From the NCBI GenBank assembly GCA_021432655.1, contig MU271182.1:1-64000 (forward strand): DNA of 64,000 nt, given 5' to 3'. The stretch's first letter is position 1. Every line of letters starts with the position of its first letter. Below are positions 24,374-62,064 of the stretch, piece by piece. The DNA is from Atractiella rhizophila (lineage: Eukaryota). The notes under the pieces were generated by a model that saw only the letters and a program-made list of their open reading frames with translations, was not told where the DNA came from and made no database searches. Made by a program: the position numbers and the translations under genes.

Positions 24374-25928
24374 TCGACTGCCTCTCCGCTAGTGAGTATT
24401 ACCGAAGTAGGGTGTCCTATTAAAGACGGAGCTGTATATCGGAAGGTACTAGTGAAACTCGGTTTTATGGTGTTTGACTGACTCGTAGACGTAACTCCCC
24501 TTAGAACTTGCGCATACTCGCCATGCTGGTGGAAGTTCGTGTTTATCGTCGTTAAGGTCTTCTCCGATGACGATCACGTTAGAAGAACCTACTAGAATGA
24601 GAACGGTCATATTCTAAGACTTGTTTTCAGAAAGGTCAAGGAGGTCCGGGTAGCTCTTTCTTCTCAGGGGGCCATGGTAAGGCGGTCCGAAGCTACTAAC
24701 ATAGTATACGCAACAGCAACTAGGAGTAAGTATTCTCCTTCTAGGGATAGTTCTGCAACGAGGTTGAGGTATTGCAACATGCGGTCGAGAAGAGGTTAAA
24801 TAGGAACAGAGAGGTGGGGTAGCACGTTTGGACACTCGTCCATTGCCGTTGGATATGAGGAGATCACAGAACGGATCTGGTACATCGTCTAGGAGATCGA
24901 GTTATTCCGTATTCAGAGCCTAGACCAGAAGTCTTCCGCATCGGTAAGTTATTTGACAAACGTCTTCTACACGTGTTAGAAGTAACTCGAATAGTAATCA
25001 CAGAAGCTTTGTCAACATTACCAAGCGAACGTTGAGGTTTCTGGTTTTACATCTGTTTTTTCTCTTGTTTTAACGATAGGAGCAAACTAACGTAAACGTA
25101 GAAGGTCTGTGTCTAGGGTAAGAAGCAGTGAAAGGTCATCTGGACTACGGTGTGTCCGACGAAACTTACAAAGCACTTGAACTCGTATTTAACATGCTTA
25201 TAGAAGTTTTCTAAATCCTGAACCCTGGAACACTTCTTCACCAGCTTCTATTTCTCGAGGGGAACACTACCACGTTATATTTATATAGGCTGGTTATCGT
25301 AGCGGAAAGAGTGCATAGAAGGTCGCGAAACTTGATGAGACGGTCTGGTTCACAGCTCCACGAACTCCTATCCAGGTATTAGCCCCTCTGGACCCCTCTC
25401 AGTGCCGTTTTAACCTTTTTAAGCGACTCGTAACAAAGGGGTTACAAAGAGGAACTTTCATATAGAAGTCCAACTAGCAGAAGACGTAATTTTTACTGGT
25501 AGACAACTAAACCTTCTACTTACGAGTCAGCTTAGTGTCAACCTCTCACTAGTACTTCGAACTTCACCTTTTAGGCGGTCGTGCGATTTTTAATATTGTG
25601 ATGAATTGACAGTTGAAATCCTCTTACCTGTTTTGCTTGGAAGGCTTCGTGGTTGTATGGTACGTAGATTTATGAGAAATTAGAGTAGGTGACCGAGAGA
25701 GCGAGGTGACCGTAGACTAAGATTCTGATTAACACGAGATAGACCGGGGAACATATGCATAAATTTCTGTATAAACTATCTCGCTTAACTCTATGTCTAG
25801 AGACACAACTACACTCGGTCTTTGAAGGAATCCTGGGTTTACCAATCTCCCGTGATGGGTAGCTAATAGTATATATTTAAGAACTGGGGTATAGTAGAAG
25901 GCTTTTTGGGCCGTCAACAATGCAGCAA
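24374..25928. other. Mirror-written segment 1 (reversed, not complemented) containing the middle of the Helitron ORF
   Basis: Read right-to-left it continues GYPTY into QRRNN...DNRWVVP...HINTEICISIRSIKYVFKYVYKG, then GGTGKT, AVASSGIAA, GGRTAH and ILWDEAIM. It ends in GTCAGCT, the 7 bases that follow the gap. Confidence 0.97.
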
Positions 25929-25953
25929 NNNNNNNNNNNNNNNNNNNNNNNNN
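25929..25953. other. Assembly gap, 25 N
   Basis: Run of exactly 25 N. Confidence 1.
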
Positions 25954-32491: not shown

Positions 32492-33202
32492 TCCGCCCAG
32501 TACTTTCGAACATCACTTTATCGTTCAATCCCAGTCGTAGTTCCGGCATACCCGATAGGTAGCACTTCATCTTGACCACACCGAAAATTTCTTAAGGAAC
32601 CACATTTCCCTCCATATTCACCTATTCAACGAGACCAAATCAACGCCGAACATAGTGGCCTCCTAGAGAGATGTGGTACGTATGTTGACACTTTCGATGA
32701 CATCCAAGAACACCTCGTTCTTCCGATGCCGAATGCCTTCACTTCTCCATGACACAGCATTCGTCGCGCTAACCGGCACCCGAACTAGTTGGATCTCGAG
32801 CTTGTGCGATTCCTGCGTAATGTATTCTTGCAGGATTTTGGACTCAGTGGTTTGAGGATAGCCGAAATCCATCATCTCGTCTAGTACTGAGTTCAGAAAT
32901 TTGTAAGTGGTAGGGTTCAGTACATGGCATGATGATCCACAACGATTCAGCATTTCATTCCCATTGTACTCAATCCATCTTCTGGAGAAAAGGCAAGATT
33001 CATGGTAAAGATTGTTATGCCTAATATACATGGAATTGATTCCTTCACTAGTAAAACAAGGCGTAACAAATTGACTCTCTTCTTCCATTTCCGAAAGCAG
33101 CGGAACAAATCGCCCGATGGCGGAAGGGGGAACGTAGTCTCGATAAGAACGCTGAATTAGCGACTTGCCCTTCAGGTCGGTGATCGCTATAAGGGATGCC
33201 AT
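32492..33202 (-). pseudogene. APM1: AP-1 adaptor medium (mu1) subunit fragment, internally deleted and 3'-truncated
   Basis: DLKGKSLIQRSYRD, YIRHNNLY, LDEMMDFGYPQTTESKILQEYITQESHKLE, NAVSWRSEGI..RKNEVFLDVIESVN and KMKCYLSGMPELRLGLNDKVMFE. The segment between NNLY and LDEMMD is missing and there is an in-frame stop. Confidence 0.85.
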
Positions 33203-33445
33203 GGCCAGGAGCTTTCAGGTAAGGTGCTGATGACGAGCTGAGTTGACAGGCGAGGGAGGCGGTCGTTCAGTATCTTTCTCTCGCCAAAAAGGATGCGATC
33301 TTTCGGCTCCGTCCATGCCTCATCAGCCTCGGCTTGGAGCCGGTTTAGAGCAGTTAGGAATTTGATATTGCCATCAATCCCCATAGTGATGTGCCAGCGT
33401 GCCCATGTTCAAAATATGGGATACGTCTTCATGCCCGTTCGAATA

Positions 33446-36400
33446 TTCGTTGTCCTGCATGTCACGGAATGAGAAGATCCACATCGCGTCCATGATATGC
33501 CTGTGGTTAAGGCGCCGTTATCAGCATTTTGAGCAAGGTTGTTAGCAACAAGATTTTTTTTAGAACTAGGTCTTTCTGCGATTGCCTAACTGGAGCGTTT
33601 CGGTTTACACCCTTCGTACACTATATTTCATCAACTATTTGACTATTCTCATTTCTGAAGCGAGAGCATTGCTGAGATTGCAAGATTGTACAACAGGAAA
33701 GAATGATTGTAGTGTTTTCTTACGTCTAGCAGCCACACAAAACAACCCACTGTTTACGAAAGTAATTCTCCCTAATTCTTCACAGGTACAAATATGTCAT
33801 TTCTTTTTTCGAATTTGGCTTTTGTACTGTTTGGGTAGTATGGGTTTGAGATCAAAGTCCTAAACAAGCCAAAACGAACGAAATCAATGTGATCAAAGCG
33901 TCACAGTAATGCTCGCTGGGAATACGGTCGGGGAACAGGAGCAACTGCTGGAGACAGATGTGGGGATTGGCATCAGGGTCGAGAGTGGAAGGGAAAGTGA
34001 AGCAGTACGATACCTATTACATGGCTTCTTCATGAGAATCAATCCAACGTCGCATCGTGAGAGAACACTTACCAGGAGAGGTTGAGCCATTTTTCGAATT
34101 AGTGAGGAAGAAGTTGAATGAGGCTCCATTGTCATACTCCCAAGACGCGAACGATTCGACATAATGATCCGCTTCTTCGATGAGAGTGAAAGTTCCGTTC
34201 CCACCTCGGGCATTCAAAGAGTCGACGGCGTTCCTCATGTCAGACTCGAGTGGTGAGGTTCCGTTGTCGAGACTACTAAGCACCGAAAACACAACCAGAA
34301 AAGAAGAACAGATCCAAGCAAAACCAGTGGACCTGGGTACCTTACAATGTCATGTGTAAGAAATGATTATTATGTATTACTAGGCATTAGTCCAGGATTC
34401 TGATAATGGTAATGCCATTACTTTGTACTGGAAAGTATGGGAGAAAACAGTGCCTTACATTACATTAAAAAAGCACTACATTACATTACATTCCAGTATC
34501 TGTAATAGAAATGTGCTCAGTGCTGGAGGGGACCACACGAAGGCGAAATTTAAAAGACGGGGGCGAGCAGCTGAACGAGGAGAAGTGTGCCATTATTGTG
34601 GTGTTCATGATTCATCCTGCCATCTCAGATGAGTGGCAATTATTTGTTCCAGAATATTCTCCATCATTCTCGCTTTTTGTTTTCTTACGTCCTTACTTTT
34701 TCTTGAAAGTTCTAGAATAACTGTCTCACAAGTATATAAAGACTGAGAAAAATAGCGAAATAATCATTGCAATTTCACAATACCAACAATTATGTAGTTC
34801 TTTGACGGCAGTCATCTCACAGATCGCAGCATGTTGCAAAGATGAAAGGTGAAGCCGGATCTGTAGGAACGTAGGAATGGCACAAAGATGCCGAAAGGGT
34901 TATGACATGGTTTTCTCTCCGGTGCAAACTCCGCACTGTACACTCTTGTACTTTCTACAGATTTATATCGCACTGGTCAATGACACAGTTTTCGATGCCA
35001 TTCACTCCGCAGCACCTGATAGTGAAACGCATGATCACGAAGTTTTGGTGATATCAAATTGAGTTGCCATATAAGAGACGAAATTCTGCCCCTTGTCTCT
35101 CTACCCAAGAATCGCTTATTATTTTTTTTCGTGGGATGGAACATTCTGCTAAACACACCAGAGTCCTCATATCAGCGGACCTCCTCCGCCGCAACACGCT
35201 CAGCAACAGGAACAACATGCACCATTGAGCGACGAGCACGATCCGAACGCTCCACGTCTGACCCTGCCTGATGGCAAGAAAATTTTCAACGAAGACGTGA
35301 AGAGCACTTGGTTCGGGTGCGTTTCCTAACTTCCCACATTCCGGCGCTCAGTGCAGCATTGATGTGAATTCTCTGCTACCAGAAAAGTTGATACGGAAGA
35401 ATGTGCCATGCTCGTCGCTGCATGCTGCTCACTTGGGAAAGCTCCCTTTGATGAACACAGCCGTGATTGAGTTTTTGATGAAGTTGGGAGACGCGAGGCA
35501 TCGCGTAACGAGTCCTGGTAATACTTGGGTGTTCGTCTTTTTCTCCCTCTCTTCTTCTAACATGTTCGACGTGACTCACTCTGCGAAAGGCTCAAAGGTC
35601 CTTCTGGTATTCTTGAATTTGAAGATGGAATTGCTTGGTTCGTTTCTTCTCTTTGCAACTGTCCTTGTGTCACTCACAATTCTCTGGGCATGAAAAGGTC
35701 AGAAAGCACCGAAATCACGTATCCGCTAATGTTAGCGCGCTGTTGTCAATCGTGGACATGCCTCTCTCAGACACCTTTCGTCAGGCGCCACCTCGAATTC
35801 AGAACGATGGACACGATCTATCACCTCATCACGTACCAATACGAACGCGACAACGTCGTTCCTCTCACCGATATTCATAAGGATCAGTGGATGATGAATG
35901 TCTGGCGTCAAGACCTCGGCGGCCATATGAGCATCATGAAGTCTTTCTACGGTGGACCACCGGTTACGAACGCCATTCGCAATTCGGCCGGAATGGATTG
36001 GAGGACTGGGGAAGCTGAAGAGCGGAGGAGAAGGCAGGCGGAGTATATGAATCAAGTCAAGAAGCCCGCTTTTCGAGTGCATGTTGCAAGAGCGGGCGTG
36101 AGATCAGACGGAGAGGAGATGATTGTGGATCTACATGAACAGCGTCCGAGAGTTTTCGAAGATCAGTCAACGCGATCGAGGAAGGATGGGCCTACCTCGA
36201 GAGGTTAGCATAAGAGTAAGGCGAGAGCTGTTGAGGATTGGCAGTCCGCTTATGAAGAGGTTCTGCCACATGCTTCTCGGGACCTTCAACGAAAAAACCG
36301 CCGGCGTTGATGACAGTCTTTTTGATGGACGGGAAGGAGGACGCAGGGGAGAGGCACGTGAAGGTTAGGGCCGATGGGAATGCGCGAGCGAACTGGGAAG

Positions 36401-37156
36401 TTGGGAGTACAGCGATCTTTGGCACGGAGAAGGGGTATAAACCTCAACTTCGTGGTCAAAAAGCTGGAGGGGACGCATATAAGGTGCCTCGCAATAAGGG
36501 AGAGCGAGCCCTCGCAGCAGAACGCGAGAGTGAGAGAGCTCGAATGCGAAGCATCCGTGGATCTCCATTCGCTCATCCTCAGCATCCAAGTCCTCCCATG
36601 GCCGCGAAGATGCCTATACATTCTCCTCCTGGCAGTTACGTCCATTGTCCGCCGCCTGGCCATCCCCTCTTCGTATATGGTTCTCCTTTTCCCCATAGGT
36701 TTTAGCTGACAAATTTTTGTGACATAGGTTCCTCCTGGATTCCCTGTTCCGTACGGACACCCTTCTCGAGCTTCGCATTCCAAAAGACAACGAAGTCTAG
36801 ACGGCCTAGAAGATGACGAAAGAGTTGTAATTGACATGGCCGTCGACGAGGAGGAGGACCAAAAACCCTTTTCGAAACGAGCTCGGGTGAGCAACACTCA
36901 ACAGGATCCCATCCCAATTCGCGACACTCCCGGTCCGTCAGCTCGTCCCTCAGCTTCCCATCGAATGGATGTAGACGAAGGACGTCACATCCCCCTCATC
37001 CCTTCAATGCGTACCAAATAGGGCATCCTGGTCATGGTCCGCCTCCCTTCATAGATGGACGCCGCTCGTCTGTGGTGCAACATCCTCACATGCCACATTT
37101 TCCTCTACCCATTGGACCTCACGATCAAGTCCTCTATGCCCGTGAGGGGCCACCGG
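33446..37156 (+). repeat. Duplicated block, copy A (copy B = mirror-read 43196 to 41420, then 46564-48492)
   Basis: 35227-37156 is nearly identical to 46564-48492 (a few SNPs, one 1-bp indel). 33446-35226 matches 41420-43196 read backwards and is more diverged below about 33900. Confidence 0.95.
35162..37156 (+). pseudogene. Divergent Gti1/Pac2 (WOPR) domain gene, copy A, frameshifted and cut by a LINE insertion
   Basis: Spliced: STWFG|KVDTEECAMLVA(frameshift)HAAHLGKLP...SPGNTWV|LKGPSGILEFEDGIAW|SES...FVRRHLEFRTMDTIYHLITYQ. TGA at 36253. The start codon was not located. Confidence 0.7.
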
Positions 37157-37230
37157 GGGGCGGTCGTAGTGCCTCCTCGTGGCGCCCCTGGATAACGTTA
37201 CTTCCTTCGGGATAACTAACTAAACTACGA
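37156..37230 (+). ncRNA. HDV-like (nested double pseudoknot) self-cleaving ribozyme at the LINE 5' end
   Basis: P1 GGGGGC/GCCCCT with G-U first pair; P2 TCGTAGT/ACTACGA; P3 GCC/GGC; L3 TCCTCGT; P1.1 CC/GG; P4 with a C-UUCG-G loop; J4/2 C37220-TAA. Confidence 0.85.
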
Positions 37231-40200
37231 TAACTTTCGCGCTGCACAGCGAAATAAATCAAGAGTGTAGTGGATTTGTTAGGCGCGCAGGATTCAGCCT
37301 CTAACAACAAGCAGCATGGGAACTTCGAGGGAATTGAGGATCTTTAGGCTCCCTAAAGATCTCGTGCGTAAAGATGGTATTGATGGAATTTGGAGGGCGC
37401 TGCAAGGGGCCCATTGCGAGGGAATAGTGCGTAAAATACGGTGGTCTAATAGACCAGATGGAGTAAATGCTACCGTCGAAGGTAGCAGTGGGGAGATCCG
37501 GAAGGCCCTGAAGCTATGGATTACAGCTCACCAAGCCCGTTCTAAATGGGTAGAGCCGAAACATAAGCGGAAGGTAACCAGACCGGATGTTCTTAAGCCC
37601 CTGAAGGAATTGAGGATTGCTACATGGAATGTGAATTCCTTATCCAATAAACGTTTAGAGGTAGTCGAGTACGTTCAAACGATGAAACTAGGAGTGGTGG
37701 CGCTGCAAGAAACCGCGATTGAAGTAGGAGGATGGCCACTGCGCCTCCCGGGGATGAACACATTCTCTAGCCCCTTGGAAGATGGTACTCCAGGGGCAAG
37801 GGGAGTCACCATATGCGTAAGCAAGAAACTCTCCAGTGTTCTAGTCGATAAATCCCCATATTGGGTATTGGTCAAAGTACATGGATTGGAGACCGGCCAT
37901 CCATGGTACTTTACCAGTGTATATGTGCCGCATGAGCCAGCGATGAAGAGACTGGCCTTGCAGGGAATTAAAGGCCGTATCAATCGGATCCTGAGACAAG
38001 ATCAGGAAGCTCGAATTATATTCATGGGGGATCTCAATTGCGGGGCCAGTAGGACAGCAACACTATTTAAAAGGACTAGTCGGATGAATAGGTTACTCTG
38101 CCGAGGATCAGATAAAACATACCACAGGGCAGCCAAGTGGACGACACTTGATCACATATTGGCATCAGAAGCAGCTTATAGGTTTTTGAGAAAGCCCAAG
38201 GTCAGAAGGGATATCCCTACATCTGACCATTTTCCAGTGGTATGTAAAGTTCGGATAGGTGAACCAATTATGGACCAACGATCAGCAGCAGGATCGGAAG
38301 AGAAGAAAGTATGGATACTTAAGGATCTGCCACAAAAGGCTAATGAGATCTTGTATCACCCGTTGTGGGAACTACCCACACCCTCCTCCTATGGGCCACT
38401 CAAGTGGGAAGAGGAGGTTGACAGACTAGAAAATCTCGCTAAGGGCTGGGACGACCTGTCGCACAAGATAGCGCAAGAAGCAGAGGTCGAGCGAGACCCC
38501 ATCCCCTTCGAAAAACGAAGGCCTAACAATAGTATTCGCCTGGCTATTAAGGCGAAAAGGACGGCATGGAAGAGGTACCTTGCCGGGGATGCTGACAATG
38601 TTGCAGAACTATGGGATGAGTACAAGCGGGTTAGAAGAGCCTCTACTCGAACCGTAGCAGAAGTCAGATCGGTAGAATGGGCAAAATATGTGCAACGCGG
38701 GATGGATTATGCACGCGTAGGACAAGCACGTAAATTCTTCCGATGGGTTAAGAACACATCTGGGTTTAAGAGTCGTCAACCAAGTGGGATAGCCCCACTA
38801 ATGGACAGTGAGGGTACCATGCGATATTCTTCGGAAGAGATAGCAAAGCTGTGGTTTGACCACGTAAGCAAGTTAATGAGTATCGGTAGTATCCCCAATA
38901 GCACGCCTGAAAAATGGCAAGCAGAAGGGGGTCTCCTAGATCAGGGGGACATGCAAACTGACCAGGACATTAGTTGGAGAGAGTTGCAATATACACTTCG
39001 GAAGATAAAAGCGGGTAAAGCGGCCGGAGCGCCGATGCTGCCCCCCGAATGGTATAAGGTGATGCTCGTTGACGCTGATGAAGACGGAGGGAGCCCTGAA
39101 ACGCCCTCCGCACCGATGCAGAAGTACTTCTACGAGGTGATCAGAACCATGTGGAGATTGTCCCGTGTCGCAAGACAATGGGATGTGGCCCTATTGGTGA
39201 TGATAGGAAAGAAAGGGGATCCTACTCAGTGTGACAATTACCGGGGTATAAGCCTCATACCTGTTATACTGAAAATCCTTACCCATATTATAGCCCGTCG
39301 AATCACCGACGGAGTAGAGTCGGATAATAGGTTAGCCGAAGAACAAGCTGGCTTCAGAAGAAGGGAGGAGTGCATGGGCCAAGTGGCAGCTCTCCTCGAA
39401 GTCTTGCAGCGCCGTCGCGATATTATAAAGGCGGGAACAGTTCTCCTATTCGTGGACTTCAAGAAGGCCTACGACCTGGTTGACCACGAGGCTCTATTCT
39501 ATAAGATGAAAAAGATGGGGGTTGGGGACAAAGCTTTGGCATTTATTCGTGATTTATACACAACTTCAAAGGTTAGGGTCATAACAGCAACTGAACTTAG
39601 CGAAGCCATAACACTCCTTAGAGGGTGCAGACAGGGGTGTCCTGGATCACCTCTGTTCTTTGACATCTTTATTAATGACTTAGCGATCAAGCTTCGTCAA
39701 TGTGGGGTAATGGTCCCTGGGTGCACAGATATTTTGGCAAGCTTATTGTTCGCTGACGACCTACTGTCCCTTGTGGATGGGCCTGATCAGTTACACAGGG
39801 CATGTGCGGTAATCACCGAGTGGGCTGATAAGTGGGGGATGAAAGTAGGGATACAGAAATGCGGGATCATGGTGACGTGTAGTAATGTGTTGGTAATGTG
39901 TTGCGAGACGAGGTCCTGGAGACACCGGGTGGATTCTCCATCCAGGGACAAAGGGTACCTATAGTAGAGGAATATGTGTACCTCGGTGTGCTCTTCAGGG
40001 ATCGTTCCTTGCCGAATGTGACCGAGCACGTGGAGGAACGGGTAAACCTCTATAATGAACGTCTGGGCTCCTTAGCACACATCACACGGTCAAAGACCAT
40101 TCCTGTCTGGACCCGAAGACATGTATTTAGAGTCGTATGCGAGCCAGTCCTGCGCTGGGGTGCGGAGGTTATGGGTCCTGCAAAGGACTCTGTAGCCAAA

Positions 40201-41394
40201 GCTGAAAAGGCTTGGATGAAGGGGGTGAAGGCCTTGGTAGGCTCAAATTCCACGAATTCAATCTTTGGACACCTAGCATTAAGAAGGGAGCTTGATCTGC
40301 CAAGCTTCCATGAGACGGTGATAATGTCCCGGCTTAGAGCGATTTATAAATACCCCACATTGAGAACGTGGATTGCGAAGCTTTTATCAGAAAGGGCATG
40401 ATCTAAACATCGGGGTTGGATTAAGGGTACAGAGTTGTGGTTGAGAACGTATCCGAAGGTGGACATTTGCATGGATACCGAGGCAGAAGCCAAGGAGAAA
40501 GTGCGCCAATATCTGAGGGAACGAGACGAAGGAGAGGTACAAGGAAGAGCTAAATCCTTCCTGTACTATGAAGCCGCCTGCTTCGAGGCCACAAGGAAAT
40601 ATCTAAAAATCGCAGTAGGGCATGCTCGGTGGTCGAAAGGGTTCAACTGGCTAGTGAGGGCGAGGGTGTCAGGTATTTGGACCGTAAAACGTGTCGCCGC
40701 AACACTCGGGTATGTGGACACCGATAAAGGCAGTAGGTGCCCTGCCTGTTCACGCGTCCTTAGGGACGACCGGGGGTTGGAGTTTGGGCACGTATTACTA
40801 GACTGTAGGGCTTATACAGATGAGAGAAATATCTTGGAACCAGTACTTACTGCCTTGCAGGACAAGGTGGGTTATGTGCTTCCACAACTATTTGTGGTGT
40901 TCTTGTTAGGAGGCAAGTTTGACGAACGTCATCGCACGAAGTGGAATGTGCCGGAGGGCGTGGACCCAGCAGCTTATCCATGGCCAGTGAAAGAGTGGAC
41001 TGGAGAGGATGAGCAGACTTTTAGGGGGACGGGAGCAAGTGTCTCTCTGTTAGTGGCGCAATTCCTTCAAGCTGCAATGCGGAAGCATATGGCAAAAGTA
41101 TGGGAAGGCGTTACCCCTAGTGGGAACTAAAGCGAATAGAGAAAGCGGAGCTTGTGAAGCAAGACTCCATATAGCCTAAGCTCACAAGGAGTATGGCAAT
41201 GGCAACAGCGTAAGCTAGCCGAGAGGTGAGTTTAGGGGGTAGGCATGTAGGGTAGGAATACCAACATGAATCCTCCACGAACTGGAGAGGGAAACCTCAA
41301 AGGGAAGGTTTTGAACTTCTCACCTCTATAAAAATTACAAGCGACTTTTGAAGTGTACTCTGAAAGAGGACGCTGGCACCCACAATGAGTTTCA
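37156..41394 (+). mobile_element. Non-LTR retrotransposon, single ORF (APE endonuclease, RT, CCHC), RTE-like architecture; ORF 37316-41130
   Basis: ATWNVNSL, LQET, MGDLN, LDHIL, SDHFPV; YRGISLI, QAGFR, DFKKAYD, GCRQGCPGSP, LFADD; CPAC...GHVLLDC. Lesions are an 11-bp tandem duplication (39882-39903) and a TGA at 40399. The 3' end is lost in the gap. Confidence 0.95.
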
Positions 41395-41419
41395 NNNNNN
41401 NNNNNNNNNNNNNNNNNNN
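41395..41419. other. Assembly gap, 25 N
   Basis: Run of exactly 25 N. Confidence 1.
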
Positions 41420-43484
41420 TTACCACGTACAACAAGGACAACGACTCGCACAACGCCGCCTCCTCCAGGCGACTATACTCCTGAGACCACACAAATCGTC
41501 TTACAAGGTAGGGTGCTTTTTTTTATTATTCGCTAAGAACCCATCTCTCTGTTCCCCGTCTTAAAGCAGAGAATATACCGTTGAGTTAAACTATAGTGGT
41601 TTTGAAGCACTAGTACGCAAAGTGATAGTCCACGACGCCTCACTTACCGTAGCTTTTGACACAGTAACTGGTCACGCTATATTTAGACATCTTTCATGTT
41701 CTCACATGTCACGCCTCAAACGTGGCCAGTCTTGGGAAAGCCGTAGAAACACGGCAAGGATGCACGGATGTCTAGGCCGAAGTGGAAGTAAAAGCGGTTG
41801 AGGCAGTACTAGACACTCTACTGACGGCAGTTTCTTGATGTATTAACAACCATAACACTTTAACGTTACTAATAAAGCGATAAAAAGAGTCAGAAATATA
41901 TGAACACTCTGTCAATAAGATCTTGAAAGTTCTTTTTCATTCCTGCATTCTTTTGTTTTCGCTCTTACTACCTCTTATAAGACCTTGTTTATTAACGGTG
42001 AGTAGGCTCTACCGTCCTACTTAGTACTTGTGGTGTTATTACCGTGTGAAGAGGAGCAAGTCGACGAGCGGGGGCAGAAAATTTAAAGCGGAAGCACACC
42101 AGGGGAGGTCGTGACTCGTGTAAGATAATGTCTATGACCATTACATTACATTACATCACGAAAAAATTACATTACATTCCGTGACAAAAGAGGGTATGAA
42201 AGGTCATGTTTCATTACCGTAATGGTAATAGTCTTAGGACCTGATTACGGATCATTATGTATTATTAGTAAAGAATGTGTACTGTGACATTCCATGGGTC
42301 CAGGTGACCAAAACGAACCTAGACAAGAAGAAAAGACCAACACAAAAGCCACGAATCATCAGAGCTGTTGCCTTGGAGTGGTGAGCTCAGACTGTACTCC
42401 TTGCGGCAGCTGAGAAACTTACGGGCTCCACCCTTGCCTTGAAAGTGAGAGTAGCTTCTTCGCCTAGTAATACAGCTTAGCAAGCGCAGAACCCTCATAC
42501 TGTTACCTCGGAGTAAGTTGAAGAAGGAGTTAAGCTTTTTACCGAGTTGGAGAGGACCATTCACAAGAGAGTGCTACGCTGCAACCTAACTAAGAGTACT
42601 TCTTCGGTACATTATCCATAGCATGATGAAGTGAAAGGGAAGGTGAGAGCTGGGACTACGGTTAGGGGTGTAGACAGAGGTCGTCAACGAGGACAAGGGG
42701 CTGGCATAAGGGTCGCTCAGTAATGACACTGCGAGACTATTGTAACTAATGTGATGGAAAACCGTGTAAATCCTGAGACTAGAGTTTGGGTATGATGGGT
42801 TTGATATGTTTTCGGTTTACGCTTTTTTCTTTACTGTATAAGGATGGACAGTTCTTAATCTGTGTTAATGAATGCATTTGTCACCGGACGAGACACACCG
42901 ACTATGTGGGTTCGTTTTGTGCTGTTAGTACGAAAGGACAACATGTCAGAACGTTCGAGTCGTTACGAGTTCGAAGTCTTTACTCTTATCAGTTTATCAA
43001 CGTTGTTTATGTTACATGCTTGCCCACGTTTGGCTTTGCGAGGTCAGTCCGTTAGCGTCTTTCTGGATCAAGATTTTTTTTAGTACAACGATTGTTTGAG
43101 CTCGTTTTACGCCTATTGTCGCGGAATTGGTGTGCGTATAGGTCACCTGTTGCTGAGTGCTAGGAGAGTAAGGCACTGTACAGTCCTGTTGCTTAATTTT
43201 GTTATCGATGTTACGGGATAACTGATCCTTCACCTCCTGACACGCTAAGCCACAGTTGTTGTTTCGCTTTCTTACGTTGGACCTTGTTCAGAGCGTGCAC
43301 GCAATTACAGCGTTTGCGGCGCGATACGGCTTTTATGCGTATGCAAGGGGCTGAAACTGGTCGGTGTTCCGAACTTTGATCTCTCACAAGAAAGCATATA
43401 AGTCTGCCGTTGCGGAAATATTTCCGGTAATCTCGAAGAGGAAGAAGTCTTGAGTTGGTTCAGGGGAAGTTGGAGAGTTCGTTC

Positions 43485-44296
43485 TACCGAGTTGGAGAGT
43501 GCCAAGGTGGCGTGGGGTAACCCGACAACGGAGTCATGTGGTTTGTGTCAGTTGGCTAGCGGTATTTCTAGTTTCTTGTACAAAATAGAAATAGCCCTCT
43601 AAGCAAGTGCTAATTCCTATAGCCTCTATTGTCGTAGCAGTTCCACCTACCTTTCACCTATAGAGAGGTGTCGTTCTTCTCACGCAAAGGCAGTGAAAAG
43701 TCCGCAACAAGAGTACCAATAACAGTGTAATAAAAAGCTGATTTCGAAACGCTCTACGGTTATGTCTACGACTTGAAAAGTGGTACTTCTTCTTCGAGAA
43801 CTCCTAGGTGGTTTGGATACTCGATCAACTGCGCAGGCTATTACAAGACCGACATGATTTTCCTTTCACCCCGTAGTCGCGCTTCTAGCTACAATGAAAG
43901 TTTCACGCGTAGAAGATAGTACAGGTTCGTCTATTACGTCCGACTATCAACCGAACGATCTTAAACCGACCTTTACCTCTCCTTCACCAGGAGTTTAACT
44001 TTCCGCTAACCAAACTGTCTTTCCGCCTCTAATGAACCCTGCTATTTGGCTAGCGGATATATAGTTCCTTGAAGAAGTTACCTTCTCCACGCCTAATAAG
44101 CAGGGAACAGGAGACGAGGAGAAATTAAACGACCGTATCTTAATTAACCACTGCGAGTCTGGATGCAACACGTCTAACGCGGCATACCATTCAAACGTAG
44201 AAGTGATTGCAGCAGTCGAGTATGCCTTTACGTCAACTACAGCGTGAGTAGTAACGCCGGACGCAACGAGAACTACTTTTTCTCTTACTCCTGATT
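43485..44296. CDS. LURP-one-related (tubby C-terminal-like) protein, 5 exons; read as the left-to-right complement (true minus strand)
   Basis: MAQPLTVPPHPIG...VLSLSGDSFTIKD...DGKWISLHSKK|TLRDANTDAELFTMKKKLL...|LKGDWFDRKAEI...|QTYVVQIAPY|VDVALIIAACVALDEKENED*. GT-AG introns 43681-43745, 43904-43960, 44088-44139, 44188-44234. A TATA-like element lies upstream. Confidence 0.88.
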
Positions 44297-45320
44297 CACG
44301 AGGGTTCGTTTAACAACACATTTTCCCAACATATGGCTAGCGAAACACTATAGGCTTGCCTTCAACTTTAGACGGTCAGTTACATTAAGTTAAATAATGT
44401 TGTTCAGAAAGACAATCAATGCTTGTACAACTCGAAGCTCCGAGCTCCTCTCGAGCTTAAGTAAGATTCGAGACAAGAGCGGGGGGATTCGGAACGGAAA
44501 CTAACAGTTCACTATATAATGCGTGTGTGTTGGGACATACTTGCTTAGAGAAAGTGTTTCCTGTAAACTCGGTCTCAGCAGTACTGGACTTCCAGGTAAA
44601 CTTTCGTGCACTCAGGTCGTGTAGAAGATGAGCGGTGATCGGCCTATCTAGTAACTGACTGTAGTAAAGTCCTACATGTGAACGGACACCTCCATGTCGT
44701 CTAGGTTTCTTCAGTGTTTAGCGGACGTGCCTGGGAGCTTGAAATAAATTCCAAGCTCCAACTGTCCTCTTCGAAGCTCTCCGTCGACGTCCCTCGACTT
44801 AAAGGGAGCAGCTGAATCGTTTCTGCAAGGTCAACTACCTTCCCATTAGCGTTGGCCTCAAAGCTTGGTGACTAACTCGACTAGAAGTCTGAAGTTCTCA
44901 GTTCAAGTTACTTTTACTGTGTCTGGATGGGTGCTTGTAAGTGTAAACGTAACTCAGGAACGCCTACTGTAGGAGCAGAGGAGAGTTGTTTTGGGTCCAG
45001 CTAGTAGGTTCTAAAGATTACTCTAGGGCATCGCCTTTGCTCTGAGGCTTTAAACCCCTATTACGAGAGCTTTTAACAAAATTTCCATGCATGGTAAGGA
45101 TGTAGTGCGAAAATGTCGAGATTTTGGAGATCTTTGATTGTAGTGGAGGCAGAACTTCGAGAAGCTTCGAACTTGTGCTTCTTGCATTGTTATTAGAGAA
45201 GAGCCGAGAGATAGGAGGTATTTTCGTCGGTGTTACAGATGTGATGAGTGGTAGTTGAGCGTGAGCTAAGGACGAAACAGAAGTCAACGGTTAGGTGTCT
45301 TGATGATGAGTCAGCTTGTT

Positions 45321-46106
45321 TACCTCGGTAGGACCCAGCCCATTCATCGATCAAGTAGACGGGCGTAACATGGGACTGAGATCCGGTCTGTTTAATGCTC
45401 GCTTTTGCTACGAAATCAGTATCAGCACGCAAGAAGCTAGAGTGTCTGTTCTACAGAGTAACTGAGAAACGTCTACCGGCGAAGAGTTCCAGAAAATCCG
45501 GCGGACTGCCTAACAGGAAGTCACCTGCTCTACTCTCGGTACCGAACCAGACCACTCTAAGACGAGTGAGCAATTCAACTGCGACTTTAACCGCTGTTAT
45601 CCACGACAAATACACATACAATAGAGAGTTGAGTTCAAAGAGAAGACTTTGTCTTCACCGTCAACCCTTGTCTTACTCCGCCTTAAAAGATCTACCCGCC
45701 TACCTGAGTTAACCGTCCAGAAGGGGGAAAAGAAAGTAAGCATGAGACTATTATCGAACCTTAGCATCCCGTAGATGTGTCGCAGTTCCGAGGAAATGAT
45801 AATCGTGACAACCAAGAGGTTTACAAAATAAACCCCTATAAGGAGAGTATGACTAAGCGACATCCGTAGTCGAAGAGGGCGACCTTCGGCCAAGTACTTC
45901 GTTGTTTAAGCCACGTGCTGTAGACTACCTGTATAAGATATAGAGCACCGTATATAAAGTTGAGCACTCGTAGAAAGGTCGGCACGAGGACGATGTCGCG
46001 ATTGGTCACTTATCCACTGTAAGGTTGCCGCGTCTCCCAACGCCTACTGGGCGAAGATCCAAGATAAGCACAGGGAGGGCCAAAGAAGTGGTGATCCCGC
46101 CAAATT
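45321..46106. CDS. Minimal Gti1/Pac2 (WOPR) domain protein, about 143 aa, 8 exons; read as the left-to-right complement (true minus strand)
   Basis: MEPSWVG|QITSENDALVIV|MAASQGLLGRL...WS|GAVYV|WEQNEAEFSRWADGLNW|ASTQRQGSFTIST|...FMKQQIRCTTSDGHILYLVAYISTR|...DDPLLGSIRVPPGFF. The model needs one GC-AG intron. Confidence 0.78.
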
Positions 46107-46324
46107 TAAACGTTCTTTCGCCGTTAAACCTGCTATCTGCATAGTTGCAACGTACTGACGTACCCTAAGTATTGTGACTTTTCAAGTATCCTAGTAGGCA
46201 GTAAAGAAAAGTAATACATTGGAGTAGCACGCGTCACGTGAAGTTTGAGGTTATAACAAAGTTACCAACAAAACGTTATGTTGTAAAGTCAAGTGAGATA
46301 TGTAGTGACGAAGAGATGCTGAAG

Positions 46325-46563
46325 AATTCGTAGATTTCAGAGGTTCCTACTGGGTCGGAGTAGCTATAGATCCTGCGCGGTTGAACGGAGTTAGACTGAG
46401 CAGCGTGGACCGTACCCACATAGAGCCTTTTACGGGTGGTGGCGAAGCGGATAGCGAAGTTTTAACAGGCAACGTTCTCGCTCCTATCAACCTGGACGTG
46501 GCCTCTCTGTCTACGGGTTGTCAGGTCCTTCTCACAGACCCCTTTCGCTATCCTATTAACCTT
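46325..46563. CDS. THR1: Homoserine kinase, C-terminal part; read right-to-left uncomplemented (true plus strand)
   Basis: LSPDTLPGLLGICLSGAGPTILALATDNFEAIG...SWRVLDIDEAGSSLETLDA*, containing the GHMP-kinase SGAGPT motif in the fungal Thr1 context. Confidence 0.9.
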
Positions 46564-49500
46564 GAGCGACGAGCACGATCCGAACGCTCCACGTCTGACC
46601 CTGCCTGATGGCAAGAAAATTTTCAACGAAGACGTGAAGAGCACTTGGTTCGGGTGCGTTTCCTAACTTCCCACATTCCGGCGCTCAGTGCAGCATTGAT
46701 GTGAATTCTCTGCTACCAGAAAAGTTGATACGGAAGAATGTGCCATGCTCGTCGCTGCATGCTGCTCACTTGGGAAAGCTCCCTTTGATGAACACAGCCG
46801 TGATTGAGTTTTTGATGAAGTTGGGAGACGCGAGGCATCGCGTAACGAGTCCTGGTAATACTTGGGTGTTCGTCTTTTTCTCCCTCTCTTCTTCTAACAT
46901 GTTCGACGTGACTCACTCTGCGAAAGGCTCAAAGGTCCTTCTGGTATTCTCGAATTTGACGATGGAATTGCTTGGTTCGTTTCTTCTCTTTGCAACTGTC
47001 CTTGGGTCACTCACAATTCTCTGGGCATGAAAAGGTCAGAAAGCACCGAAATCACGTATCCGCTAATGTTAGCGCGCTGTTGTCAATCGTGGACATGCCT
47101 CTCTCAGACACCTTTCGTCAGGCGCCACCTCGAATTCAGAACGATGGACACGATCTATCACCTCATCACGTACCAATACGAACGCGACAACGTCGTTCCT
47201 CTCACCGATATTCATAAGGATCAGTGGATGATGAATGTCTGGCGTCAAGACCTCGGCGGCCATATGAGCATCATGAAGTCTTTCTACGGTGGACCACCGG
47301 TTACGAACGCCATTCGCAATTCGGCCGGAATGGATTGGAGGACTGGGGAAGCTGAAGAGCGGAGGAGAAGGCAGGCGGAGTATATGAATCAAGTCAAGAA
47401 GCCTGCTTTTCGAGTGCATGTTGCAAGAGCGGGCGTGAGATCAGACGGAGAGGAGATGATTGTGGATCTACATGAACAGCGTCCGAGAGTTTTCGAGATC
47501 AGTCAACGCGATCGAGGAAGGATGGGCCCACCTCGAGAGGTCAGCATAAGAGTAAGGCGAGAGCTGTTGAGGATTGGCAGTCCGCTTATGAAGAGGTTCT
47601 GCCACATGCTTCTCGGGACCTTCAACGAAAAAACCGCCGGCGTTGATGACAGTCTTTTTGATGGACGGGAAGGAGGACGCAGGGGAGAGGCACGTGAAGG
47701 TTAGGGCCGATGGGAATGCGCGAGCGAACTGGGAAGTTGGGAGTACAGCGATCTTTGGCACGGAGAAGGGGTATAAACCTCAACTTCGTGGTCAAAAAGC
47801 TGGAGGGGACGCATATAAGGTGCCTCGCAATAAGGGAGAGCGAGCCCTCGCAGCAGAACGCGAGAGTGAGAGAGCTCGAATGCGAAGCATCCGTGGATCT
47901 CCATTCGCTCATCCTCAGCATCCAAGTCCTCCCATGGCCGCGAAGATGCCTATACATTCTCCTCCTGGCAGTTACGTCCATTGTCCGCCGCCTGGCCATC
48001 CCCTCTTCGTATATGGTTCTCCTTTTCCCCATAGGTTTTAGCTGACAAATTTTTGTGACATAGGTTCCTCCTGGATTCCCTGTTCCGTACGGACACCCTT
48101 CTCGAGCTTCGCATTCCAAAAGACAACGAAGTCTAGACGGCCTAGAAGATGACGAAAGAGTTGTAATTGACATGGCCGTCGACGAGGAGGAGGACCAAAA
48201 ACCCTTTTCGAAACGAGCTCGGGTGAGCAACACTCAACAGGATCCCATCCCAATTCGCGACACTCCCGGTCCGTCAGCTCGTCCCTCAGCTTCCCATCGA
48301 ATGGATGTAGACGAAGGACGTCACATCCCCCTCATCCCTTCAATGCGTACCAAATAGGGCATCCTGGTCATGGTCCGCCTCCCTTCATAGATGGACGCCG
48401 CTCGTCTGTGGTGCAACATCCTCACATGCCACATTTTCCTCTACCCATTGGACCTCACGATCAAGTCCTCTATACCCGTGAAGGGCCACCGGTGGGAACC
48501 CTTCCTCCTGGTACTCAAATTCCAATTCCTGGTCATCCAGTTGGTGGATTCATAGACCCACGCTTTCAAGAACCTAGGCTTGCGCCGAAGCCGACGAGAG
48601 GAAGAGGGAGGGGAAGGGGAAGGGGGCCTAGAAGAGGGAGAGGAGGGGGAAGAGAGACGAAGGAGCCTCGACCAGAAGGATCGGAAGAGGAACGGATTCC
48701 AACACCTCCTCTTCCTCGTCCTCCTACAATGCAGGAACGAGATCTCTTGATCCGAAACGAAGACAATACATTGGCAGATAACATAGTGATTAATCCTGCG
48801 ACGGAAGGAGAAGTAGACGAAGATAAATCTGCAGCTCCCCATCCACCTGCCGATCCAGCTCAGCAAATGTCGTCCTCGGTCGGATCGAGTGTGATGAGGC
48901 CCAGGAAAAGGCATCAGCGCCAGATGAGCCCAGGGCACATCAACAGACCCGATAATGTCTGGGTTGTCTTTCTGAAGCATTATCGAGTGGCTAGACAAGA
49001 GGCAAAGGCGATGGGGTTGATCAAATCTCAGCAAATAACGAAGGAAGCATCCAAGATCTGGAAGAAGATGACAGACGAAGATAGGGCACCGTAACACGAA
49101 ATTGCGGGGGAGCAGAAGAAGATCCACAAGATCAAGCACCCCGACTATCGCTTTCATCCTAGGAGGAGGGATCGTTGCGAGAAAGGAAACTTTTGTTGGG
49201 TTCGGCAACCATGGCCCCATACTCTCCTCATAATAGGGCAACATACATGCCTCATTATCCTCGCCCTCAACCTCCTCCTCACGCTGTTCTCCCTCAGCAT
49301 CATTCCCAATTGCGAGAGCCAAAATTTGAGTCCAACTTCGAAAAAGGTGATGCATCACCTGTGCGGGTCAAGAAATGTTTTATTTGCCCCGTGAGATAGT
49401 TCCACCTCAACAATTCTCTCCCCCACCGGTTCCAGACTCTCCCCCTTCTCAAACAGCCCCTCTTCATGAAGATCAAGTCACTTCTCTTGCTCTTGCTCCA

Positions 49501-50520
49501 GTTCGAGCATCTCCTGCAGCCCAACAGCCGTCTCTTCGAACGGAAGTACAAGCACAAACTCAATTATCTTCCCCTCCTCCCGCTCCAGGCCGAGACCCGT
49601 CCTCCGCTGCCTCTGTTTCTTCACCCCAAGCTTCAATGTCTCCCAAAAAAAGAAGCAACAACACCTAGGGAATCGGAGGGGCTACAATGAGTACGCTTTA
49701 TTCGTCCCTCTTCTATTTTAGGATGATTGAACTTTCCAATCGTCCAGGTGCCCCTGCCTTGTATCCCCATCCACCTTCTGGGTATACGGTGGCTATTAAT
49801 CCATCGGGCGGTGACACGGAAGGTCAACGGGTGCTTTGTATCAGTTGTCGCCAGGCCGCTCAGCAACGGGATAACCTTTGCATCGACTTGTTGTATGCCT
49901 GCTCCTCGAGCTTCAAATCATTCCTTCTAACCAGTTTTGTGCATTATTAGCCTTATCCCAAAACTCCCTCGGCCGCCAATCCTTTTTCGCTCCACCTACT
50001 GCATCCCGAGCGGATGACTTCTCCCACTCCTCTAAACAGAAGCCTACATCTCCTCAACAGATTCTTCCCAAAGCGGAAGTTACATCTAAACCTTCCGCAG
50101 CGCTCGACACGAAGACCGCTCAACCAGCTCAGAGGCAGAAACGTCCATACACTCGTCGACAGCCTGGAGACCCACCGCGGAAGCGAGAAAGACTACCAAC
50201 GCATCCACGACCAAAAGCACAGGTACAAAACATGTCGACGATACAACTTCCTGGAGGCTCTAACAACGGTCCATCAGCTCCTCCTCCTACTGCTTTCAAT
50301 TCCAGTTCCAATGATCCTGGTGCAGAAGACAACGTAGTGGTTGAACCTGCGAAAATGGTGGAGGAAAAGAAGAAGGAGAAACAGAAAGAACTTGACAAAC
50401 CTGAAGAGTATTTTTTTCGAAGATGAAATTTCATTCAATGGAAAAAGTGGGGATGAGAAGGGAGCTCGAGCTCCGAACGAGGATAAAGATGAGCTCGATG
50501 AGGATGCTACGAAGGTTGAG
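46564..50520 (+). pseudogene. Copy B: divergent WOPR domain, Pro-rich linker and MATA/SOX-type HMG box; disabled; 3' end approximate
   Basis: Same WOPR exons as copy A. HMG box at about 48937-49165: HINRPDNVWVVFLKHYR...ITKEASKIWKKMTDEDRAP*HEIAGEQKKIHKIKHPDYRFHPRR. TAA at 49092, TGA at 47589, plus frameshifts. Confidence 0.72.
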
Positions 50521-50649
50521 TGATTTGTTCTCTCTATTTATTTCGATCCTCCCGTGTTCAATCACAGAATTCATGGCTGATGTGCCTTGTGCCTTGCCGC
50601 TGTAGAATGTATGCTTATGAATCATGAATTGCAAAGAATCCGTCTCATT

Positions 50650-51950
50650 CAAAGCAAGGGAATCAAGGAACCAAGGTATCTGGAGACTAATGAGTTAAGC
50701 ATCGGATGATGATCCTGGCTCAGTTCTGGAAGCCACATGCCAGTTTCATGCAGAAACAGCCTTCGCTTCTTCGCTTCGTTCAAGAGCTGTAAAAAGTTCT
50801 CCGCGAACTTTTGCGCGTCTCCCGGAAACCTCTCAAATACATAAAGTGGCTGTCCCATCAGGATATCAGGACATCAGCATGAAAGAAAGCATGTAAAAAG
50901 GGAATACTGGCTTCTTGTCCACAACAACGAAAGGACGGGTATCGAAAAACCACCTCTTTGTATAGGTAGGGTTTGGCGAGCCAGCATTGAACCTTCCATG
51001 TATGTCAATGACCTCTCTGTGGCACAATATGCACCATATGTCCTGTAGTACTTGCCCAGGAAGGGGGCAGTTACAACGTAAGCGAATCTGTGGGTTCCAC
51101 CATGCACAATCTTCAGCCTGTATGAAAATGGACTCAGTCCTTTGTCAGTCAGGAGTCAGTACAATGAAGACAGATTCATGTTCGTCCTTCATAAAGCCAA
51201 TGTTGTCCTAAGCCAGTGCTTGAACTGCCATACCATGATAGAGGTCGTTGTACCTGTAGCCACTCTTCAGCTTCTCGATCAGGTACTCCATTTTTGCCTG
51301 AGTCTCCTCCAGCTTCCTCCCAAAGTATCCCATTATCTCAGCAGTCTGTGATGCCCGGAACAATGGTTTGATTCTATGGAGGGGTTTGCAGAAGAGAAAC
51401 CTCTTCTCAGTCTTCCTCTTATCTGGTGTCAAATGTCCTGGGATTGCAGAGCGCCCAAATGAAAGCGCATAGTGTGCTCTATCGTAGGGTACAATCTGTC
51501 CATTGATCTTGCGAGAGTGCGGGCATCTGCAGCAGTTTGTGAGCTCATCAAGTCCATTCATTCTATGGAGAGATGAGTCTTACCGCTCTAGCCCCTCATA
51601 CTTCCCAAGATAGGAGCTGCAAGAAGCTCCACACATTGGCAACCACTCTCCTTTCAACCCACTCAGTTCAGCGACCAACTTCTTTGCTTCTGGGAGGGTA
51701 TGCATTTCATGATTGCGAGAAATCCAATTCTGATAGTGACCCTGATAGCTTGCTTCCATGTCGTTGTTTCGATGCCAGACTCGGAACTCATCCAATGTAA
51801 GCTACTGTTTGTCGTCAAGCTCAGGAATATTGTCCTGATAAGTTGGAGGAAGAGCCGGAAGGTGATCAGAGCCGTCATTGAAGAGTGGCATGAGGATATT
51901 GCGGACCTCACTGCAATCCAAGGTCCAGGCATTAGCGCATTCTTTTTTAC
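50650..51950 (-). mobile_element. CACTA/EnSpm (Tnp2-like) transposase remnant
   Basis: AKKLVAELSGL...PMCGASCSSYLGKYEGL..CRCP, PLHRIKPLFR and YNDLYHG resemble the N-terminal part of fungal EnSpm-type transposases. Fragmented. Confidence 0.55.
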
Positions 51951-52211
51951 TTAGAATTTTAGTACGTATGACAATGGTGTAGCATGTGTGAGCTCCACGG
52001 CTCCAGCGGGCAAGCGGTGTTGTCTTGTAGTATGCCTCCTCATCCTCTTCAGGGCCAGACCCAGCAAGCCTCACATCCTCTCCCCTCAGCTCCCACAACA
52101 ACTCCACCATCCCCCATTTGTACATCACTTTCATCTTGAAGATTGGTTCCTCCATCCACCATCTCTACGTCGCGTTCAGCCTCAGGTTGAAGATTTAGTC
52201 CCCGATGAGAG

Positions 52212-52620
52212 GTGGATCATTTGAAGCTGGCCCTCGACAAGGCCAAGAAGTTGCTTCTCCCTGTGAACTCAATGTTGAAACATCATGCAGAAAGCAGGAC
52301 GATAACGCCTTCCAAAGCTGGTGCTGATTCTTCAGCAGACGATTGGATCAAGAAGCCTGTCAAACCGTACCGGCCCATCATCAGCAAGGATATCACCCTC
52401 TCAGGGTTTCAGAAGGATGAGGCCATGTCGTTCTTCCATCCAAGTGTCGAGGCAGCTCAAAAGAAGCTGCTTAGGTACTATGACGAAATGCGGAAGCAGA
52501 GGAACTACATTCTTTCTACTGGTTGGCCACATTCTTGATCTCTGCAAGGAGCCCTGCTCATGATATCCCAGCCTATCATCCTGGGCACCGTCTTGACTTC
52601 TTCCACGACAATTATAGTGA
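52212..52620 (+). mobile_element. Possible hAT transposase C-terminal remnant
   Basis: AAQKKLLRYYDEM...NYILST, a likely intron, then AYHPGHRLDFF (KLxxYY...HP pattern). Confidence 0.4.
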
Positions 52621-52714: not shown

Positions 52715-53225
52715 TAGAGATGTCAACGAGTATGGTACTCGTGGGTACTTGTGCCACAGGTATCCGTGCACAACAAGTTACAAATCAGCTGAAGAGGGGA
52801 AATTTTCATCAGGGGTACCCATTCATGTTCCCTGCTACGTACCTAAGAGTACTCATGAACATATGTCCTGAAATGGCAGGTACCTGTGGGGTACTTGTTT
52901 GAAAGAGTTAAAGAGAGTTTTATATTAATTTTTGATCTTAGTCACATTCAAAATGGCTCTATCTGACTCTGAGGTACAAGTAATAGTGGTGTTTAAGCCA
53001 TAAGCAATGTATAATAAGTCATCTATGTAAACTAATGTGCCTAAACTGTAAAATTATGTGGATGAGTAGAGTCTAAGTTAATACAAGGGTACCCATGAGT
53101 AGTACTCATGAGTACAAGGGTACCTGTGTCAAAGGTCACAACAAGTTACAAATCAGGCTTTAAGCTGATCGATACTCGTGAGTAAGGGTACCTGTACTTA
53201 CGAGTCCTACTCGTTGGCATCTCTA
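52715..53225. mobile_element. Non-autonomous TIR element (MITE-like, hAT-type ends), 511 bp
   Basis: TIRs TAGAGATGTCAACGAGTA / TACTCGTTGGCATCTCTA (17 of 18 match), with internal GGGTACCC and TACTC subterminal repeats. No 8-bp TSD is evident. Confidence 0.8.
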
Positions 53226-61712: not shown

Positions 61713-61874
61713 TAGAGATGCCAACGAGTAGGACTCACAAGTACGGGTACCCTTACTCACGAGTATCGATCAGCTTAAAGCCTGATTTGTAACTTGTTGT
61801 GACCTTTGACACAGGTACCCTTGTACTCATGAGTACTACTCACGGGTACCCTTGTATTAACTTAGACTCTACTC
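61713..61874 (-). repeat. One-ended copy of the 52715-53225 element
   Basis: Near-exact reverse complement of about 53064-53225, starting TAGAGATGCCAACGAGTA. Confidence 0.9.
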
Positions 61875-62064
61875 CTCCTTCCTCAGAGAAAGGAGAAGGT
61901 TAGACTAGCACTGATGATTCTGGTCTTGGGGACAGCCAATTGACGTCTCACCAGGCCGCTCCTTCTCTCCAGCGTCTACTGATCCGTCCCGCTTACGCAT
62001 CTTTCAACACAACACACAAAAATCTCTAGCTGCTTTCCACTCGCTTCTTTCCACCGCCCACGCC

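What the first reader, a model, noticed from the sequence alone, without database searches (positions are those of the whole stretch)
41420..46563. 5.1-kb mirror-written segment hides three real genes from all six-frame annotation
Seen: the segment is ORF-poor in six frames, but it is the reverse (not reverse-complement) of normal DNA. It mirrors 33446-35226 and rejoins 46564 seamlessly. Un-mirrored, it contains the THR1 3' end, a WOPR gene and a LURP-one-related gene with canonical introns. Established: 5'->3' templated synthesis does not produce kilobase mirror copies. Inference: a gap-filling or scaffolding orientation bug. Both mirror segments abut 25-N gaps, a placeholder size associated with long-read gap fillers such as PBJelly. 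Other gaps in this assembly may hide genes the same way.
Basis: partly seen in the sequence, partly recalled or inferred. Interest (0 to 1): 0.75.

Follow-up and report, generated by a model that had tools for sequence, protein, structure and literature searches.

The report
Backwards-written assembly block, genes duplicated elsewhere
A 5.1-kb stretch of this fungal genome record was written back to front beside an assembly gap, which is a data error rather than biology, and the three ordinary genes inside it are also present, readable, elsewhere in the same assembly.

Summary
The mirror is real and is an assembly artefact. 41420-43195 is the reverse (not reverse complement) of 33445-35226 at 94.4%, and the reversed block joins 46564 seamlessly. 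Public contigs reaching 46562 continue leftward in the un-mirrored sequence. Turned round, the block holds the last 78 codons of THR1, a small WOPR-like gene and an intact LURP-one-related (LOR) gene. They are not lost: all three lie in normal orientation on C355 (10 substitutions in about 3.37 kb), THR1 and the WOPR-like gene also on C57, and a public protein matches the LOR model at 195 of 196 residues. The block is an allelic overfill beside a LINE presence/absence site. The fault is systematic: 7 mirror-like segments in 55 sampled tiles, about 3.7% of bases (bootstrap 1.0-7.5%), beside 5 of 7 25-N gaps but also beside larger gaps. Each gap-extension piece is reversed in place. PBJelly is plausible but unproven. 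This scan already found the same fault on other DNA of this genome. Useful for quality control; no new biology.

The parts
41420..46563 (.). Mirror-written block (reverse, not reverse complement, of the true sequence): a leftward extension of the contig that starts at about 46564
41395..41419 (.). 25-N gap; the left flank does not join the un-mirrored start
46325..46561 (.). Last 78 codons and stop of homoserine kinase THR1 (read high to low without complementing); full copies on C355 and C57
   Evidence: PF00288 and weak PF08544 on the C355 copy; 1 and 3 mismatches in 244 bases
45321..46014 (.). Small multi-exon WOPR (Gti1/Pac2)-like gene on the complement strand, about 116-134 aa depending on the splice model; identical on C355, 5 of 696 mismatches on C57
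   Evidence: tblastn of a script-built model against PF09729-called loci, E 1e-11, 34% over 77 aa
43485..44296 (.). LURP-one-related (LOR) gene on the complement strand, 5 exons, 4 GT-AG introns of 47-65 bases, 196 aa, intact
   Evidence: PF04525 66.6 bits, cut-off 24.5, on P0001; 195 of 196 identical to P0001
41420..43195 (.). Part that mirrors 33445-35226; about 88% alike in the first 550 bases (a dispersed repeat), about 99% in most of the rest
41420..41510 (.). 5' end of the first coding exon of a fourth gene, probably the HMG-box gene running to about 49.3 kb, cut by the 46563/46564 junction; this allele and copy 1 carry a 1-base deletion relative to C355 and C176
   Evidence: intron-skipping contigs of X3; PF00505 24.6 bits, under the 25.4 cut-off; that these exons form one gene is inferred
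46562..48496 (+). Normal-orientation duplicate of 35225-37160 (99.5%); the allele without the LINE
33445..37160 (+). Copy 1 of the same locus, the allele that carries the LINE
37161..41334 (+). Non-LTR retrotransposon (endonuclease plus reverse transcriptase) inserted at the site equal to 48480-48496, probably with a 17-base target-site duplication
   Evidence: (joints 48496->37200 in X1 and X3; 41334->48483 in one X2 contig with only 21 letters on the short side)
24374..25928 (.). Second mirror block: the middle of a Helitron; un-mirrored it joins 24373 on the left and overlaps 25954 by 7 bases on the right
   Evidence: 7 of 7 Helitron copies align across the left join only when un-mirrored; as written all stop at 200 bases
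25929..25953 (.). 25-N gap right of the second mirror block

Best explanation
The block is an output error of a gap-filling step. The tool extended contig ends into scaffold gaps. When writing the scaffold it put each extension piece in the right place but applied only half of the reverse-complement operation (complement without reversal of a minus-strand piece, or reversal without complement; the two cannot be told apart). Shown: pieces are reversed one by one, in place, on either side of a gap. Here the extension ran 5.1 kb leftward from the contig at 46564 through sequence allelic to 33445-35226 and to C355/C57, could not meet the left contig, which ends in a LINE of the other allele, and the overfilled gap was left as 25 N. 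Inferred: the two-step history, heterozygosity as the cause of the overfill, and the identity of the tool.
For: Reversed block matches C355 over 3470 bases at 98.8% and C57 over 2080 bases at 99.2%; as written it matches none of the loci fetched by then and only itself in the genome search. Contigs that reach 46562 continue with un-mirrored letters: 3 contigs in X1, 2 in X3, consensus 29 of 30 identical. Second block re-joins on both sides. At C203 both flanks of a 1600-N gap are separately reversed and each re-joins its own flank; at C187 a left extension is reversed and about 354 bases remain unfilled against 396 N. Sample of 55 tiles: 7 mirror-like segments, 6 within 150 bases of a gap; 5 of 7 25-N gaps against 1 of 23 other gaps, Fisher p 0.0008. 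PBJelly defines gaps as 25 or more N and describes overfilled gaps (PMC3504050, passages); overfilling duplicates genes (PMC9635638, passages).
Against: The loose-end contigs could come from copy 1 or another allele, so they show that the un-mirrored join exists, not which scaffold position it belongs to; X1 and X2 are one sample and may be the source sample. Only contigs, no raw reads, were available. The un-mirrored THR1-to-LOR part is 99.7% identical to C355 with no indel, cleaner than the 88-96% reported for PBJelly fills (PMC8848313, passages), so raw-read PBJelly fits this block poorly; the Helitron block does look noisier (97.6%, 11 gap openings, against a 100% flank). No passage read says that overfilled gaps are written as 25 N (recalled only). 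3 of 7 sampled segments rest on composition alone.
Confidence: 0.96

Rival explanations
1. The mirror is real DNA made by a non-canonical copying process, as claimed for 'swinger' (A<->T + C<->G) sequences.
For: The transformation is formally the same as the one described for the 16S gene of the Kamimuria wangi mitogenome record (PMC4942731, passages). The mirror is not identical to copy 1 (94.4%).
Against: Contigs at the junction carry the un-mirrored letters. Mirrors start at contig ends beside N gaps. The reading frames inside are undecayed. The 5.6% difference sits mostly in a dispersed repeat. No known polymerase makes a parallel-strand copy (established knowledge, recalled).
Confidence: 0.005
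2. Same artefact, but made by another step than PBJelly-type long-read filling: a custom script, a contig-merging or short-read gap closer, or a later format conversion.
For: Indel-free 99.7% identity to C355. Mirrors also beside gaps of 396, 456 and 1600 N. No published account of such a PBJelly fault.
Against: Extensions of 3-7 kb, one- and two-sided, with shrunken or 25-N residual gaps match the flank-extension and overfill behaviour in PMC3504050. Error-corrected long reads would explain the accuracy.
Confidence: 0.35
3. The un-mirrored block is a true second locus (segmental duplication), so the mirror hides additional gene copies and not just alleles.
For: The un-mirrored block differs from both C355 (10 substitutions) and C57, and switches from C355-like to copy-1-like sequence near 43195. 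The downstream region is only 88-92% identical to C355.
Against: Contig joints place the LINE at 48480-48496, which makes copy 1 plus LINE and copy 2 two states of one site. C57 ends inside the block, as the adjoining contig of the same locus would. A switch at a repeat is what a mixed-haplotype consensus gives.
Confidence: 0.12

Closest known systems
Overfilled gaps and false duplications from long-read gap filling (PBJelly; PMC3504050, PMC9635638, PMC8848313; passages read)
   Same: Flank extensions that do not meet, residual or placeholder N gap, allelic sequence duplicated.
   Different: The passages read do not describe reversal without complement; the tool used for this assembly is not known to me.
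'Swinger' A<->T + C<->G segment in the Kamimuria wangi mitogenome record (as cited in PMC4942731; passages read)
   Same: Same letter transformation with sharp switches inside an otherwise normal record.
   Different: Claimed there as biology; here sequencing contigs show the un-mirrored join and the blocks are tied to assembly gaps.
Earlier findings of this scan in the same genome (e1-7588550, e1-7572163, e1-7574419, e1-7588955, e1-7574415)
   Same: 1.5-2.2 kb blocks written backwards beside gaps and holding ordinary genes.
THR1 homoserine kinase (TIGR00191, PF00288), WOPR/Gti1-Pac2 (PF09729), LURP-one-related (PF04525)
   Same: Ordinary members or relatives, with normal-orientation copies in the assembly.
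   Different: The WOPR-like gene is short and divergent (34% to the closest called locus) and was not among the 25 PF09729 genome matches.

Membership tests
Assembly artefact (half-applied reverse complement) | Reversed letters match normal DNA; letters as written match nothing normal | tested here: met
Assembly artefact (half-applied reverse complement) | Sequencing data carry the un-mirrored join | tested here: met
   loose ends at 46562 in X1 and X3; contigs only, allele of origin unknown
Assembly artefact (half-applied reverse complement) | Recurs at assembly gaps | tested here: met
   6 of 7 sampled segments within 150 bases of a gap
PBJelly overfilled gap | Flank extension that fails to close, gap of 25 N or more | tested here: met
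   (7-base overlap at the first gap)
PBJelly overfilled gap | Long-read consensus error profile in the fill | tested here: inconclusive
   indel-free in THR1-LOR, indel-richer in the Helitron block
PBJelly overfilled gap | The assembly was processed with PBJelly and the code has this fault | not testable with these tools
   no pipeline record, no source code
True inversion (reverse complement) | Segment equals the reverse complement of its homologue | tested here: not met
   it equals the plain reverse
Swinger DNA | Molecules exist with the transformed letters contiguous to normal DNA | tested here: not met
   contigs at the junction go on un-mirrored; contigs cannot exclude rare molecules
LURP-one-related (PF04525) | Pfam score over the curated cut-off | tested here: met
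   on P0001, which differs from the un-mirrored model at 1 of 196 residues
WOPR / Gti1-Pac2 (PF09729) | Pfam score over the cut-off for the spliced protein | not tested
   only single frames were scanned (no hit); likeness shown indirectly, E 1e-11 to Pfam-called loci
Homoserine kinase THR1 (TIGR00191) | Full-length match over the cut-off | tested here: not met
   the block has only 78 C-terminal codons; the full genes on C355 and C57 pass (193.9 and 192.5 bits, cut-off 168.25)

The most novel reading that the evidence does not exclude
An undescribed orientation fault in a widely used gap-filling tool has silently written a few percent of this and many other public draft assemblies backwards, so that genes with no readable second copy are missing from annotation and some published 'swinger' or mirror-DNA claims have the same origin. 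Shown here for one assembly only; spread to other assemblies is untested.
Probability: 0.3. Interest if true: 0.45.

Novelty: not a real feature. Interest (0 to 1): 0.14.

Why it matters
No new biology. It matters for data quality: scaling the sample, roughly 0.5-3.8 Mb of a 51-Mb public assembly may be unreadable to six-frame tools and read mappers, and the blocks can be found cheaply by a strand-direction score and repaired by reversing them in place. At this locus the cost is small because readable copies exist; elsewhere in the genome earlier notes report whole genes inside such blocks. If the fault lies in a common tool it would affect other assemblies.

Tried and rejected
1) Lack of cover: depth was 0 in 8 of 8 bins from 42310 to 46397 in 4 of 4 contig sets, and 18.3 in one run (X2) in bin 41799-42309, unexplained; contigs show presence, not absence, so this is not counted as evidence. 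2) No RNA holder listed; expression of the three genes was not tested. 3) PF04525 genome search found 0 matches because the exons are short, although the gene is on C355; single-frame Pfam scans of 13 frames across the LOR/WOPR region also gave no hit. 4) An intron-motif count as a second test of direction was dropped: the 200-kb control showed it follows composition (805 as written, 1094 reversed), so it is not independent of the Markov score. 5) Stop-free-run counts separate the two readings weakly (3 against 5 runs) because the genes are intron-rich. 6) 41335-41394 does not join the un-mirrored start in either direction; two other LINE-like copies share it. 7) Literature: no account of this fault in the listings (4 papers; 20 of 77 listed; 0 papers); the library lacks most subscription papers and all software issue trackers, and supplements were not read, so absence from print is not shown. 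PMC6240028 (passages) only gives 25 as PBJelly's minimum gap setting. One search listed one unrelated paper, not read. 8) A word search of earlier findings with 'PBJelly' returned nothing.

Full report
Observation. A word comparison of the window with itself under four transformations found one long plain-reverse match. blastn of the reversed window places it at 43195->41420 against 33445->35226, 94.4% over 1795 columns; 35225-37160 is also repeated directly at 46562-48496, 99.5%. Reversing 41420-46563 and appending 46564 onward gives one 3729-column alignment to 33445-37160. A 4th-order Markov score of forward against reversed reading is negative in 10 of 10 bins inside the block and in 3 of 3 bins at 24501-26000, against 4 of the other 115 bins. 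The only two N runs in the window are 25 long and touch these two blocks.

Genes. The window is G000:C3:1-64000. The reversed block matches C355 over its first 3470 bases at 98.8% and the end of C57 over 2080 bases at 99.2%; as written it matches none of the loci fetched by then and only itself in the genome. These are the only two normal copies found. Between 46563 and about 43200 there are 10 substitutions and no indel against C355. THR1: the block holds the last 78 codons; full genes on C355 and C57 pass the TIGR00191 cut-off. WOPR-like gene, 45321-46014 on the complement strand: 0 of 696 mismatches to C355, 5 to C57; a script-built model hits PF09729-called loci at E 1e-11, but 18 splice models stay open at the 3' end and the spliced protein was not scanned against Pfam. 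LOR, 43485-44296: five exons, four GT-AG introns, 196 aa; public protein P0001, labelled Atractiella rhizophila by its source, differs at 1 residue and scores 66.6 bits on PF04525. So the genes are real but not hidden; at most a second LOR allele (3 base differences) is readable only in the mirror, since C57 ends before it. The junction also cuts the first exon of a fourth, probably HMG-box, gene.

Sequencing data. Four public contig sets were laid on 37200-52500; X1 and X2 are one sample and may be the source sample. Loose ends before 46562 (3 contigs in X1, 2 in X3) match the un-mirrored end at 29 of 30 letters; 58 further loose ends were not shown. They may derive from copy 1 or another allele, but they show which join exists in DNA. 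Joints 48496->37200 (X1, X3) and 41334->48483 (one X2 contig, short side 21 letters, with a poly-A run) place the LINE at 48480-48496 with a probable 17-base target-site duplication. Copy 1 plus LINE and copy 2 are then two alleles of one site laid in tandem (inferred).

Second block. 24374-25928 reversed continues the Helitron frame 22531-24373 (PF14214) and overlaps the PIF1-bearing contig at 25954 by 7 bases. Seven of 7 Helitron copies tested align across the left join only when un-mirrored; as written all stop at the 200-base flank.

Extent. The mirrored Helitron used as a query found mirrored pieces on C215 and C203, both beside gaps. On C203 both flanks of a 1600-N gap are reversed separately and each re-joins its own flank; on C187 a left extension is reversed beside a 396-N gap. 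In 55 tiles chosen by contig rank before viewing (499,872 non-N bases; hand-spaced, not a random draw) there were 7 mirror-like segments, about 3.7% of bases, tile bootstrap 1.0-7.5%; 6 lay within 150 bases of a gap and the seventh about 300-500 bases from one; 5 of 7 25-N gaps and 1 of 23 other gaps (some cut by tile edges) had one, Fisher p 0.0008. Four of the 7 also matched normal DNA when reversed (one over only 98 bases); three rest on composition. Outside called segments 26 of 938 bins were negative. 200 kb of gap-free C3 and C4 gave only two marginal scores at a lower threshold. A 25-N gap on C355 had no mirror.

Mechanism. Shown: extension pieces are in the right place and order but each is reversed without complement, on either side of a gap. 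Inferred: a gap filler applied half of the reverse-complement step to flank extensions of gaps it could not close. PBJelly defines gaps as 25 or more N and flags overfilled gaps (PMC3504050, passages); overfilling duplicates genes (PMC9635638, passages). That overfilled gaps are written as 25 N is my recollection only. The indel-free accuracy of the main block is higher than benchmark PBJelly fills (PMC8848313, passages), so the tool stays open.

Comparison and verdict. The same letter transformation has been claimed as biology ('swinger' DNA, PMC4942731, passages); here the gap linkage and contig joins argue against that. Five of the 8 earlier notes listed for this genome report the same fault on other contigs (not re-checked). 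Searches for a published account found none, within a limited library. Verdict: a confirmed, systematic assembly artefact holding ordinary, duplicated genes; low biological interest, modest value for quality control.

Noticed in passing
window 37161-41334 and 48480-48496: LINE presence/absence polymorphism inside a spliced, probably HMG-box gene; both alleles are in the scaffold in tandem. The copy-1 allele also has a 1-base deletion shortly after the start codon relative to C355 and C176.
   Followed up: partly
window 22531-27346: Helitron (PF14214 plus PIF1 2B domain) with near-identical copies at C3:228988 and C71:94498; 40 matches among 40 scored of 67 candidates, so a recently active family is likely.
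   Followed up: partly
G000: 25 PF09729 (WOPR) matches, many short and clustered (C4, C83, C197, C12, C498), a large expansion for a fungus; alleles may inflate the count, and the gene studied here was not among them.
   Followed up: no
window 32455-34250: Dispersed repeat of about 1.8 kb, 87-94% alike on C230, C187, C161 and C203; the un-mirrored block switches from C355-like to copy-1-like sequence inside it.
   Followed up: partly
C355 against C57 and window 46564-51120: Allelic divergence is patchy: about 0.8% around THR1 but 8-12% in the adjoining downstream region, as in a hybrid or strongly heterozygous dikaryon.
   Followed up: no
window 1-106: Perfect 15-base tandem repeat, about 7 copies, at the contig start.
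   Followed up: no
window 53060-53225 and 61713-61878: 166-base inverted repeat pair at 97%, 8.5 kb apart, possibly terminal repeats of a DNA transposon.
   Followed up: no
L096 2877-9785 (C365), L111 744-3541 (C1000), L092 6713-9442 (C294), L100 2243-5283 (C465): Further mirror blocks of 2.7-6.9 kb beside 25-N gaps; gene content not examined. In L096 and L111 the reversed block is 85-86% alike to neighbouring normal DNA, again an overfill.
   Followed up: partly
window 21637-22358 and 30623-31459; 5196-5644 and 29497-29946; 55989-56631: Older local duplications at 70-80% identity, including a degenerate repeat of about 162-base period.
   Followed up: no
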